Assembly (NCBI RefSeq): GCF_009914755.1
Contig: NC_060947.1
DNA from: the human T2T-CHM13v2.0 reference genome, Homo sapiens
Length of the DNA stretch: 64,000 nt
Reading direction: 5' to 3' (one strand)
Positions 18,668 through 21,692 of the stretch are shown in pieces. Position 1 is the first letter of the stretch. The number at the start of each line of letters is the position of its first letter. A program made the position numbers and the translations under genes. The notes below the pieces were generated by a model. It made no database searches. It saw only the letters and a list, made by a program, of their open reading frames with translations, and had not been told where the DNA came from.

Positions 18668-20387
<1,720 letters not shown>

Positions 20388-20389
20388 GG

Positions 20390-20740
20390 AAGAAAAATTT
20401 ATGTGTTAAATGTGGCTGGGCTGCACCTTGTGGAGCGTGGGAGTGGCTGTGCAGGCGCCAGCCGCCAACCATCTCAGAATGCGTTCATTGCCTGAGCCTG
20501 GATGCCAGCATACCTGCGGCGCGGCACTCGGGGCTTGCGAGGAGACTGGCAAGCACAGACGCCACGTCCTATATCTCCCGCAACACGGTCGCCATTTTTG
20601 GTCGCCATTTTTGGTCGCCATTTTTGGTCGCCATTCTGTTGGTACTAAGGTGTTGTGGTTGGTAGAAGCTTAAGTGAGAGCATCGCGAGTAGTGTGGTCG
20701 CAGCCATGTCATTGTCACCGCTGCGGGTGGCGGTGGTGTG
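20390..20740 (+). promoter_or_regulatory. CpG-rich putative promoter / 5' UTR of the SSU72 retrogene
   Basis: GC- and CpG-rich block in an otherwise CpG-depleted window, containing the YY1-type array and a Kozak-like gcagccATG. Promoter function is inferred. Confidence 0.5.
20587..20638. repeat. 13-bp tandem repeat (GGTCGCCATTTTT)x3 plus one degenerate copy, YY1-like motifs
   Basis: Units at 20587, 20600, 20613 and 20626. Each complete unit reads AAAAATGGCGACC on the minus strand, fitting the YY1 core AAnATGGCG. Confidence 0.9.
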
Positions 20741-21290
20741 CTGGAATAACCAGAACCAGAGCATGGAGGCACACAGAGTCCTCAACAAACGAGAATTCAG
20801 TGTCCAGTCCTTTGGAATAACACCTCATGTGAAGCTTCCAGGACCAGCGCCTAACAAGCCAAATATTTATGATTTCAAAACCACATATGATGAAATGTAC
20901 AATGATCTTATCACGAAAGACGAAGAATTCTATACACAGAATGGCGTTCTGTATATGTTAGACAGAAATAAGAGAATCAAGCTCCGGCCAGAAAGGTTCC
21001 AGGATTGCAAAGATGTGTTTGATCTGATCATCACTTGTGAAGAGAGCATTTATGACCAGGTGGTGGAAGATCTAAATTCCAGAGAACAGGAGACCTGCCG
21101 ACCAGTGCATGTGGTGAACATGGACATCCAGGACAACCAGGAAGATGCCATCATAGGGGCGTTTCTCATCTGCGAGCTCTGCCAGTGTATCCAGCGCTCA
21201 GAGGATATGGAGAATGAGATTGATCAGCTGCTGCAGAAGTTGGAGAAGAAGAGAGGCCAGGCCTTCCTGCACACGGTCTGCTTCTACTAA
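20706..21290 (+). CDS. SSU72: Intact intronless SSU72-like retrogene (RNA Pol II CTD phosphatase homolog, 194 aa), catalytic Arg replaced by Gln
   Basis: ATG 20706 to TAA 21290 is 195 codons. MSLSPLRVAVVC...HVKLPGPAP...YDFKTTYD...MLDRNKRIK...DIQDN...FLHTVCFY is collinear with SSU72 without indels. It is a paralog/retrocopy, not the multi-exon parent. Expression is unproven. Confidence 0.88.
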   Translation: MSLSPLRVAVVCWNNQNQSMEAHRVLNKREFSVQSFGITPHVKLPGPAPNKPNIYDFKTTYDEMYNDLITKDEEFYTQNGVLYMLDRNKRIKLRPERFQDCKDVFDLIITCEESIYDQVVEDLNSREQETCRPVHVVNMDIQDNQEDAIIGAFLICELCQCIQRSEDMENEIDQLLQKLEKKRGQAFLHTVCFY

Positions 21291-21299
21291 TGGTCCTGG

Positions 21300-21410
21300 C
21301 CTGGAGCCCGCTGCTGTTACTGCCACTTGCTGCTGCTGCCACCACCACCATGGCCAATTTCGCCACTGCTGCTGTCGTGGCTGCCTCCCTTGCCACTGCA
21401 GCCCTCCAGA
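21300..21410 (+). repeat. GC-rich degenerate triplet tract (GCT/GCC/CCA) in the retrogene 3' UTR
   Basis: gctgctgttactgccacttgctgctgctgccaccaccaccat...gccactgctgctg. Confidence 0.7.
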
Positions 21411-21692
21411 AGCCATCGTGTTGAACTTACTTCTGTTAACACTTTTTACTTCCTGATATTTGTTAATAATTTTAGGTATTTGGTTGATGATTCTTTACCC
21501 AAAGGAATTGTACTTGTAAAATGAGAGGAGATACATAAATTCCAAGTTTCTTTTATCCCACATTTACTTATGAGTAGCATATTAATGATAAATTGCTGTT
21601 GTTGTTGATTTCCTTTAACCAAGGAGTTTGAGAAGAGCTGCCAGACCTTCACGCACAGGCCCCCTCACCCAATTTTTGAGTTGTTTGCTGTC

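What the first reader, a model, noticed from the sequence alone, without database searches (positions are those of the whole stretch)
20706..21290. Intact SSU72 retrogene that looks like an evolved pseudophosphatase
Seen: an intronless 194-codon ORF with no stop or frameshift. The P-loop reads C12-W-N-N-Q-N-Q18 (20739-20759). Established: SSU72 is a LMW-PTP-fold Pol II CTD pSer5/pSer7 phosphatase whose CX5R loop (C-SSNQN-R) needs the Arg to bind phosphate, and its C-terminal strand docks on symplekin. By-eye comparison with human SSU72 as I recall it gives roughly 75-80% identity. Many changes are conservative (I/V, L/I, D/E, Q/E), while radical ones fall in conserved motifs: S13W, S14N, R18Q, SFGTG to SFGIT, and TCEER to TCEES. 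The nucleophile Cys, the KLPGP substrate loop, the DIQD acid loop and the HTVCFY tail are kept. Inference: a structurally maintained but catalytically dead paralog that could trap phospho-CTD or compete with SSU72 for symplekin/CPSF, plausibly in germline. Caveat: R18Q could be a single CGG-to-CAG CpG transition.
Basis: partly seen in the sequence, partly recalled or inferred. Interest (0 to 1): 0.85.

Follow-up and report, generated by a model that had tools for sequence, protein, structure and literature searches.

The report
Old SSU72 retrogene, now likely decaying
This intact X-linked copy of the SSU72 phosphatase gene was a real, selected gene in monkeys and apes for tens of millions of years, but the ape version lost its key catalytic arginine and now seems to be drifting like a pseudogene.

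Summary
Window 20706-21290 (+) is an intronless 194-codon ORF, a full-length Ssu72 match, 151/194 identical to human SSU72, with the P-loop CWNNQNQ.

It is not a chance-open pseudogene. Intact 194-aa relatives exist in a sequence NCBI labels bonobo (same CWNNQNQ) and in three New World monkeys. The monkey copies share 12 derived residues with the human copy but keep CX5R. Lineage-wide omega is about 0.4. The CDS has no indels, while its UTR flanks have 11. Older substitutions avoid conserved sites.

So R18Q (CGG to CAG, a CpG transition) arose after the split from New World monkeys and is not private to humans.

The claim of present-day maintenance is not supported. Human and bonobo differ at 9 residues against about 4 expected under neutrality. 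These changes are random with respect to conservation and hit near-invariant H23 and R114.

Best reading (0.55): a formerly functional simian retrogene that was inactivated in the ape lineage and is now drifting. A still-functional, non-catalytic paralog remains possible (about 0.3). No expression data or primate DNA were available, and no paper on SSU72P1 was found.

The parts
20414..20705 (+). 5' flank of the retrocopy, homologous to about 300 bp upstream of the parental SSU72 ATG (5'UTR / CpG-island part)
   Evidence: Local alignment. Global alignment gives 58.6% identity with 7 gap events. CpG o/e is 0.80 here against 1.25 in the parent.
20587..20635 (+). Perfect 13-bp tandem repeat GGTCGCCATTTTT, 3.8 copies, expanded from a single parental GCCGCCATTTTG at -77. 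The resemblance of its core to a YY1 site is recalled, not tested.
   Evidence: TRF, 100% matches. Parental single copy.
20706..21290 (+). Intact 194-codon SSU72-derived ORF (annotated SSU72P1)
20739..20759 (+). P-loop codons 12-18, CWNNQNQ. Cys12 is kept and Arg18 is lost (CGG to CAG).
   Evidence: The same loop is in P0001. New World monkey orthologs keep CS(S/N)NQNR.
20817..20825 (+). Codons 38-40, I-T-P in place of the parental T-G-T (the SFGTGT motif)
   Evidence: Family conservation at sites 38 and 39 is 0.72 and 0.84.
21045..21047 (+). Codon 114 AGC (Ser) in place of Arg. This change is human-side only.
   Evidence: Family conservation at site 114 is 0.86.
21123..21134 (+). Asp loop D140-I-Q-D143, retained
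21291..21400 (+). 110 bp after the stop codon with no counterpart in the parental 3'UTR or in the chr7/chr11 copies
   Evidence: 103-bp gap in the alignment. No blastn match. TRF finds a 16-bp repeat at 21312-21342.
21401..21592 (+). 3'UTR homology to the parental SSU72 3'UTR
   Evidence: 66.5-71% identity with 3-4 gap events.

Best explanation
SSU72P1 is the human copy of an old X-linked processed retrogene of SSU72. The retrocopy arose before the common ancestor of New World monkeys and catarrhines and was kept as a coding gene under purifying selection. New World monkey copies still carry the CX5R catalytic loop. On the lineage leading to humans and bonobos it lost the P-loop arginine through R18Q, a single CpG transition, and it also changed T38I and G39T next to the pocket. 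That should abolish phosphate binding and catalysis. Since then the frame appears to have drifted without detectable constraint. It is still open only because too little time has passed for a stop or frameshift to arise. On this reading it is a recently dead retrogene and not a maintained pseudoenzyme.

Shown: retrocopy structure, orthologs, timing of changes relative to the sequences available, lineage-wide omega below 1, and a recent random-like substitution pattern.

Inferred: loss of activity from R18Q, the absolute dates, and present-day non-function.
For: (1) Retrocopy structure. The copy is colinear with the 5 parental coding exons and has no introns.

(2) Orthologs. P0001 (NCBI label Pan paniscus; 185/194 identical; cluster of 10 members) lies on a 160,241,051-bp contig. 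That size fits the bonobo X as described in passages of PMC11168930. Three New World monkey proteins (Aotus, Callithrix, Saguinus) are all 194 aa. All 5 sequences share 12 derived residues, and no other of the 120 aligned sequences kept (116 database hits plus 4 human sequences; 124 before trimming) shares more than 6. The clade has UFboot 100.

(3) Past constraint. My own codon-model ML gives omega on the X branch of 0.29 (p=0.006 against 1). With the parental omega fixed at 0.01 it is 0.42 (p=0.048). The 585-bp CDS has 0 indels against 11 gap events per 177 mismatches in its own UTR flanks. Simulation gives P(no stop)=0.10 at the null model's 66 substitutions. Pre-simian, stem and New World monkey substitutions avoid conserved sites (P=0.03, 0.0004 and <0.0001).

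(4) Loss of the Arg. The Arg is present in 101 of 103 hits where the loop could be read. It is absent only in P0001 and in a Cebus protein.

(5) Recent relaxation. Human and P0001 differ at 9 residues against about 4 expected from 0.97% X divergence (P(>=9)=0.03; under omega 0.3, P about 1e-5). Mean conservation of the sites hit is 0.476 against 0.509 for all sites (P=0.37). Two of the 9 hit sites with conservation >=0.8, against 0 of 32 older non-pocket changes (Fisher p=0.044).

(6) No intact Old World monkey ortholog appears among the 120 listed hits.
Against: The recent-period sample is only 9 substitutions, and no bonobo DNA was available, so dS for that interval is assumed and not measured. 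The species of P0001 rests on a database label plus a contig length.

Residues conserved in active enzymes (H23, R114) could become free in a working non-catalytic protein, so hits there do not prove total loss of function. An excess of replacements (point estimate omega about 2) could equally mean positive selection.

The ORF is still intact in at least human and P0001, in a cluster of 10 member sequences. The 21 stem changes still avoid conserved sites outside the pocket. If R18Q came early in the stem, that would mean constraint continued after catalysis was lost.

The omega test is borderline (p=0.024-0.054) once the parental omega is fixed realistically. The absence of Old World monkey proteins from a database is weak evidence.
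Confidence: 0.55

Rival explanations
1. It is a still-functional, catalytically dead SSU72 paralog (pseudophosphatase). The fold and partner surfaces would be used non-catalytically, for example to compete for symplekin or other SSU72 partners. The active-site pocket would then be free or under directional change, possibly with fast, positively selected evolution typical of X-linked germline genes.
For: There is a long history of constraint. The ORF is intact in human and in P0001 (cluster of 10 members). Stem substitutions avoid conserved sites except in the pocket, where 5 of 21 fall in 12 pocket residues (hypergeometric P=0.004; the pocket was defined post hoc). Cys12, the Asp loop, KLPGP and the C-terminal HTVCFY are retained. 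The human-bonobo replacement excess (9 against about 4 expected) is compatible with positive selection. NCBI models the bonobo locus as protein-coding (label).
Against: No purifying selection is visible after the loss. Near-invariant residues outside the P-loop are hit independently in both lineages. S13W and S14N are ordinary variants in CX5R-bearing relatives, so the pocket 'remodelling' reduces to R18Q, T38I and G39T. No expression, peptide or binding evidence exists, and no paper mentions SSU72P1. RefSeq and HGNC keep it as a pseudogene while upgrading the chr11 copies. Without the Arg, phospho-CTD trapping is chemically unlikely (recalled).
Confidence: 0.3
2. It is an ordinary processed pseudogene that was never functional, and its frame stayed open by chance.
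For: It is annotated as a pseudogene and sits in a gene-poor, AT-rich X region beside another processed pseudogene (hub table). Stops alone are not decisive: P(no stop)=0.05-0.10 for 66-89 substitutions.
Against: Five intact 194-aa orthologs span two parvorders. Omega is about 0.3-0.4. There are 0 indels against about 4 expected from the flank ratio; combined with stops this gives roughly 0.002-0.005. Substitutions are strongly biased to variable sites.
Confidence: 0.05
3. It still has phosphatase activity despite R18Q, for example with another residue substituting for the Arg.
For: Cys12 and both Asp-loop aspartates are kept.
Against: The Arg is invariant in the 85 full-length sequences selected for carrying C12 and R18, and it is present in 101 of 103 readable loops. 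It is essential in Cys-based phosphatases (recalled). T38I and G39T also hit conserved positions.
Confidence: 0.03

Closest known systems
Human SSU72 (chr1 parent; PDB 3o2q/3o2s)
   Same: Same length, gap-free alignment, 77.8% identity, Pfam Ssu72 over the full profile. Cys12, the Asp loop, KLPGP and the C-terminus are kept.
   Different: Intronless and X-linked. The P-loop is CWNNQNQ (no Arg18), with T38I, G39T, T40P and R114S. There are 43 replacements, while the parental protein is nearly invariant in vertebrates (191-194/194 in several mammals and reptiles).
SSU72L family (six chr11 copies plus one chr7 copy; HGNC renamed SSU72P2 to SSU72L2 as protein-coding, PMC12807706 passage)
   Same: Intronless 194-codon intact SSU72 retrocopies in the same genome.
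   Different: They form a separate, older lineage: 64-65% aa identity to the X copy, and they group with a rhinoceros protein. They keep CX5R (CVSN(V/I)NR) and show omega about 0.2. The X copy lost the Arg and remains annotated as a pseudogene.
Pseudophosphatases such as STYX or the inactive myotubularin-related proteins (recalled, not tested here)
   Same: A phosphatase fold with a catalytic-loop residue replaced.
   Different: Those are expressed, conserved proteins with demonstrated non-catalytic roles. Here there is no expression or binding evidence, and no detectable constraint after the loss.
Retrogenes that die after a functional period (recalled concept; reviews listed were seen only as a search listing)
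   Same: A retrocopy with an inherited CpG-rich 5' end, long ORF conservation, then a lineage-specific inactivating change.
   Different: The frame is still fully open. The only lesion is loss of catalytic and conserved residues.

Membership tests
Ssu72 family (Pfam PF04722) | Full-length match to the family profile above the curated cut-off | tested here: met
   290.1 bits against a cut-off of 25.3, profile positions 1-189 of 189. Gap-free alignment to solved human and Drosophila Ssu72.
Active Ssu72 / Cys-based phosphatase | CX5R P-loop: nucleophilic Cys | tested here: met
   C12 is present.
Active Ssu72 / Cys-based phosphatase | CX5R P-loop: phosphate-binding Arg | tested here: not met
   Q18, codon CAG against parental CGG. 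The Arg is present in 101 of 103 readable loops among the 120 hits.
Active Ssu72 / Cys-based phosphatase | Asp loop (D140/D143) | tested here: met
   NMDIQDN is retained.
Processed retrocopy | Colinear with the spliced mRNA, no introns | tested here: met
   All 4 coding exon junctions are fused, and UTR homology is present on both sides.
Processed retrocopy | Poly(A) tail and target-site duplications | tested here: inconclusive
   The 3' end could not be located. Homology fades after 21592 and an Alu follows at about 21682. TSDs were not searched for.
Functional retrogene (historical) | Intact orthologous ORFs in several species and omega below 1 | tested here: met
   Five intact 194-aa sequences form a clade with UFboot 100. 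Omega is 0.29-0.42, p=0.006-0.054. Synteny of the monkey loci was not testable.
Maintained pseudophosphatase | Purifying selection after loss of the catalytic residue | tested here: not met
   Human and P0001 differ at 9 residues against about 4 expected if neutral, with site choice random relative to conservation. Small sample and protein-level only.
Maintained pseudophosphatase | Transcript and protein exist; a partner (e.g. symplekin) is bound | not testable with these tools
   No expression, proteomic or binding data were available. No paper on SSU72P1 was found.

The most novel reading that the evidence does not exclude
In apes, an ancient X-linked SSU72 retrogene was converted by R18Q and changes beside the pocket into a non-catalytic paralog. 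It is now evolving under positive selection (human-bonobo omega point estimate about 2). It would act in the germline as a competitor or adaptor on SSU72's partner surfaces (symplekin, TFIIB, cohesin) and not as a phosphatase.
Probability: 0.15. Interest if true: 0.65.

Novelty: new member of a known kind. Interest (0 to 1): 0.35.

Why it matters
The locus is filed as a plain pseudogene, yet it records a full retrogene life cycle. It was born with part of the parent's CpG-rich 5' end. It then spent tens of millions of years as a selected coding gene that is still catalytically equipped in New World monkeys. In the ape lineage it lost the catalytic arginine. The outcome is either a dying gene or, less likely, a new non-catalytic regulator of the Pol II CTD / 3'-end machinery. 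The question is cheap to settle with existing primate assemblies and human expression and variation data. It also bears on whether the New World monkey copies should be annotated as a second active SSU72.

Tried and rejected
(1) CpG-island promoter idea. Window 20400-20760 has CpG o/e 0.80. However, it is homologous to the parental upstream region, which has o/e 1.25, and the CDS fell from 25 to 14 CpGs. I read it as a decaying relic, not evidence of a protected promoter.

(2) The 13-bp repeat as an old regulatory element. Its copies are 100% identical, so it is probably a young expansion.

(3) Three-taxon NG86 distances with the chr7/chr11 copies as third taxon. They gave an implausible parental dN because X and chr7/11 share parallel changes at 10 nonsynonymous sites. 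I replaced them with ML with the parental omega fixed.

(4) Pocket clustering (P=0.004). The pocket was defined after seeing the data, and S13W and S14N occur in CX5R-bearing relatives, so I give it little weight.

(5) The Fisher test was entered with 3 recent hits by mistake. G30 falls just under the 0.8 threshold. It was corrected to 2 of 9 (p=0.044).

(7) The structure papers PMC3038789 and PMC3475799 were not held, so symplekin-interface and CTD-contact residues could not be mapped. Only review passages were read.

(8) The one 'SSU72P1' literature hit was a false match to 'Ssu72p' followed by a reference number.

(9) The first broad literature search did not require SSU72 and returned nothing relevant.

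(10) Structure prediction, fold search and complex prediction were not run. An alignment-driven model of a 78%-identical copy would not discriminate between the readings, and no symplekin sequence was at hand.

(11) The 110 bp after the stop has no match in the parental or chr7/11 loci, and its origin is unresolved.

Full report
1. WHAT IS THERE

Window 20706-21290 (+) is a 194-codon ATG-to-TAA frame with no internal stop. It matches Pfam Ssu72 (PF04722) over the entire profile, E 7.8e-87. It aligns without a gap to solved human SSU72 (3o2s/3o2q) and to Drosophila Ssu72.

The window's own genome was searched. It holds the following SSU72-related loci:
- the multi-exon parent on contig 1
- this X copy
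- six intact intronless copies on contig 11
- one intact intronless copy on contig 7

I located the parental splice sites and spliced the five coding exons in a script. The X copy is colinear across all four junctions, with 151/194 identical residues and 89/585 nucleotide differences. Cys12, KLPGP, DIQD and HTVCFY are kept.

2. EXTENT OF THE RETROCOPY

Homology to the parent runs about 300 bp upstream of the ATG, to about window 20414. Identity there is 58.6% with 7 gap events. It resumes in the 3'UTR at 21401-21592, at about 67-71% identity with 3-4 gap events. The 110 bp directly after the stop have no counterpart. I could not locate a poly(A) tail; an Alu follows at about 21682.

The 5' flank is CpG-rich, with o/e 0.80. 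The parental region it derives from has o/e 1.25, so I read this as a decaying inheritance and not a protected promoter. A single parental GCCGCCATTTTG at -77 has become 3.8 perfect tandem copies of GGTCGCCATTTTT at 20587-20635. The perfect identity of the copies argues for a recent expansion.

3. ORTHOLOGS

A protein search listed the best 120 of 532 hits. The relevant ones are:
- P0001. It is 194 aa, 185/194 identical to the human ORF, and a cluster of 10 member sequences. NCBI labels it 'SSU72-like [Pan paniscus]'. It lies on a contig of 160,241,051 bp and has the same CWNNQNQ loop. Passages of PMC11168930 give a 154-Mb chimpanzee X and a 6.3-Mb bonobo-chimpanzee difference, so the contig length fits the bonobo X.
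- Three New World monkey proteins: Aotus P0009, Callithrix P0011 and Saguinus P0013. All are 194 aa.

These monkey proteins share with the human ORF 12 residues derived relative to the parent: P2S, D50N, V54I, Q63E, L75F, P93L, L104V, L109I, H145Q, E147D, T149I and R185Q. They keep CS(S/N)NQNR. No other of the 120 aligned sequences kept (116 database hits plus 4 human sequences; 124 before trimming) shares more than 6 of the 12.

FastTree and IQ-TREE on a 30-sequence subset that I chose (UFboot 100) recover the five as one clade. A tenrec protein and a lemur protein attach next (UFboot 96 and 78). This may reflect an older origin or convergence at variable sites.

Among the 120 hits the P-loop could be read in 103. 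Of these, 101 end in Arg. The exceptions are P0001 and a Cebus protein reading CLSNQNW. No Old World monkey ortholog appears in the list.

4. TIMELINE OF REPLACEMENTS (parsimony on proteins)

- Twelve changes are shared by all five sequences, and 5 more are shared with some New World monkeys.
- Twenty-one are shared only by human and P0001. These include S13W, R18Q, T38I, G39T (New World monkeys have Ala) and T40P.
- Four are human-only (G30E, K73E, R114S, Q132R) and 4 are P0001-only (H23Q, K28R, E74Q, Q142R).
- Site 150 differs in both.

R18Q therefore arose after the split from New World monkeys and before the human-P0001 split. TCEES is human-specific. Absolute dates (about 43 and about 6-7 million years) are recalled and not computed here.

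5. WAS THE FRAME EVER UNDER SELECTION? YES

(a) Omega. NG86 for parent against X gives Sd 41.5, Nd 46.5, dS 0.469, dN 0.108. The parental protein is almost invariant in vertebrates, so nearly all dN lies on the X branch.

I wrote a GY94-type branch model for four sequences (parent, X, chr7, one chr11):
- With the parental omega free, omega on the X branch is 0.29 (2dlnL 7.58, p=0.006 against omega=1).
- With the parental omega fixed at 0.01 or 0.05, it is 0.42 or 0.41 (p=0.048 or 0.054).
- With parent-only codon frequencies, it is 0.39 (p=0.024).

This is a home-made implementation with a distant, saturated outgroup, so I treat it as moderate evidence.

(b) Indels. The flanks carry 11 gap events per 177 mismatches, and 8 of these are not multiples of three. 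The CDS carries 0 per 89 mismatches. With the null model's 66 X-branch substitutions, about 4 indels are expected, so P(0) is about 0.02.

(c) Stops. Simulation from the parental CDS gives P(ATG kept, no stop)=0.10 at 66 substitutions and 0.05 at 89. Combined with the indel result, an open frame under lifelong neutrality has a probability of roughly 0.002-0.005.

(d) Site pattern. I built a conservation profile from diverse Ssu72 proteins. I aligned 151 sequences: 141, 9, and the parent. Of these, 101 were full length and 85 had C12 and R18; these 85 were kept, which dropped 16. I then compared the mean conservation of the sites hit with the all-site mean of 0.509, using 20,000 random draws:

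| Group of replacements | Mean conservation of sites hit | P |
|---|---|---|
| Pre-simian | 0.364 | 0.03 |
| Human + P0001 stem | 0.321 | 0.0004 |
| New World monkey lineage | 0.322 | <0.0001 |

Neutral decay would not avoid conserved sites in this way.

6. IS THE ARG-LESS FORM STILL MAINTAINED? NOT DETECTABLY

The only contrast that post-dates R18Q is human against P0001.

Site pattern. The 9 differing sites have mean conservation 0.476, indistinguishable from random (P=0.37). They include H23 (0.99, changed in P0001), R114 (0.86, human) and G30 (0.80, human). Outside the pocket, 0 of 32 older changes hit sites with conservation >=0.8, against 2 of 9 recent ones (Fisher p=0.044; the table was mis-entered). 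A Mann-Whitney comparison of recent against older non-pocket changes gives p=0.038, and against all older changes p=0.095.

Number of changes. From 0.97% human-chimpanzee X divergence and a nonsynonymous mutation fraction of about 0.69-0.71, about 4 replacement differences are expected under neutrality. Nine are seen. P(>=9) is 0.028 at lambda 4.2, and about 1e-5 at lambda 1.3 (omega 0.3). Constraint of the earlier strength is therefore excluded for this interval. The data fit neutrality or positive selection.

Caveats:
- The sample is 9 sites.
- There is no bonobo DNA, so dS is assumed.
- Species identity rests on a label plus a contig length.
- Residues conserved for catalysis might be free in a working non-catalytic protein.

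7. THE POCKET

Five of the 21 stem changes fall in residues 12-18 and 36-40 (hypergeometric P=0.004). I defined that set after seeing the data. W13 occurs in 4 relatives and N14 in 8 or more relatives that keep the Arg. The clearly damaging hits are therefore R18Q (conservation 1.0), G39T (0.84) and T38I (0.72).

That residues 36-40 line the substrate site is inferred from the review statement that a small beta2A/beta2B sheet sits by the active site (PMC8038829 passage). I could not read the primary structure papers.

8. MECHANISM AND RIVALS

Best reading (0.55). The locus is a simian-wide X-linked SSU72 retrogene that was functional and probably catalytically active, as its New World monkey orthologs still appear to be. 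It was inactivated by R18Q on the ape lineage and has since been drifting. The frame is open only because little time has passed.

Rival (0.30). It is a non-catalytic paralog that is still used, possibly fast-evolving. The constrained pattern of the stem changes and the retained Cys, Asp loop and C-terminus allow this reading. Nothing after the loss supports it.

Never-functional pseudogene (0.05). Section 5 contradicts this.

Retained activity (0.03). This conflicts with the near-universal Arg.

'Trapping' of phospho-CTD is unlikely, because the missing Arg is the phosphate ligand in this enzyme class (recalled). If the protein exists, competition for partner surfaces is the more plausible mode.

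9. COMPARISON WITH WHAT IS KNOWN

The chr11 and chr7 copies form a different and older retrogene lineage. They are 64-65% identical to the X copy, keep CVSN(V/I)NR and show omega about 0.2. HGNC has reclassified at least SSU72P2 as the protein-coding SSU72L2 (PMC12807706 passage).

No paper in the searchable library mentions SSU72P1. One search gave one hit, which one search showed to be a false match. One search covered the SSU72L/P symbols. Supplementary tables were not searched and could hold expression values.

RefSeq calls the human locus a pseudogene (hub table), while NCBI models the bonobo locus as a protein (label).

10. VERDICT

The kind of object is known, namely a retrogene turning into a pseudogene or pseudoenzyme. 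This member and its ape-specific catalytic loss do not appear in the papers I could search.

Noticed in passing
L002-L007 (contig 11, 4.298-4.404 Mb) and L008 (contig 7, 125.79 Mb): There are seven further intact intronless 194-codon SSU72 copies, each inside a 236-codon open frame. All keep CVSN(V/I)NR, and omega for the clade is about 0.2. Three of the six chr11 copies read MEIQD in place of MDIQD in the Asp loop, and one of these also has M168I. They group with a rhinoceros 'SSU72 like protein 3-like' sequence, so the family predates primates.
   Followed up: partly
window 20587-20635: A perfect 13-bp tandem repeat GGTCGCCATTTTT (3.8 copies) lies in the retrocopy's 5' flank. It grew from a single parental GCCGCCATTTTG at -77. 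The core resembles a YY1 site (recalled).
   Followed up: partly
window 19154-19975 and 20007-20391: A second processed pseudogene (TNPO3P1, same strand) lies about 730 bp upstream of SSU72P1. The two are separated by an AT-rich simple repeat and a minus-strand Alu that abuts the retrocopy's 5' end. I did not examine whether they are independent insertions.
   Followed up: no
window 21291-21400: The 110 bp immediately after the stop codon are rich in GCTGCT/CCACCA repeats and have no match in the parental 3'UTR or the chr7/11 loci. Their origin is unknown.
   Followed up: partly
P0053 (Echinops) and P0046 (Prolemur): A tenrec and a lemur 'SSU72-like' protein attach to the simian X clade (UFboot 96 and 78). 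The tenrec protein shares 6 of the 12 clade-defining residues. This could be an older eutherian origin or convergence at tolerant sites.
   Followed up: no
one search hit list: Many mammals carry multiple annotated intact 194-aa 'SSU72-like' proteins, including colugo, marsupials, bats, carnivores and rodents. This suggests that SSU72 is unusually prone to producing long-lived retrocopies. A Cebus protein (P0112) reads CLSNQNW and also lacks the Arg.
   Followed up: no
The X copy and the chr7/11 family share identical derived states at 10 nonsynonymous sites, and 20 of 45 X-changed nonsynonymous sites are also changed in chr7/11. This shows strong reuse of the same tolerant positions in independent retrogenes.
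   Followed up: partly
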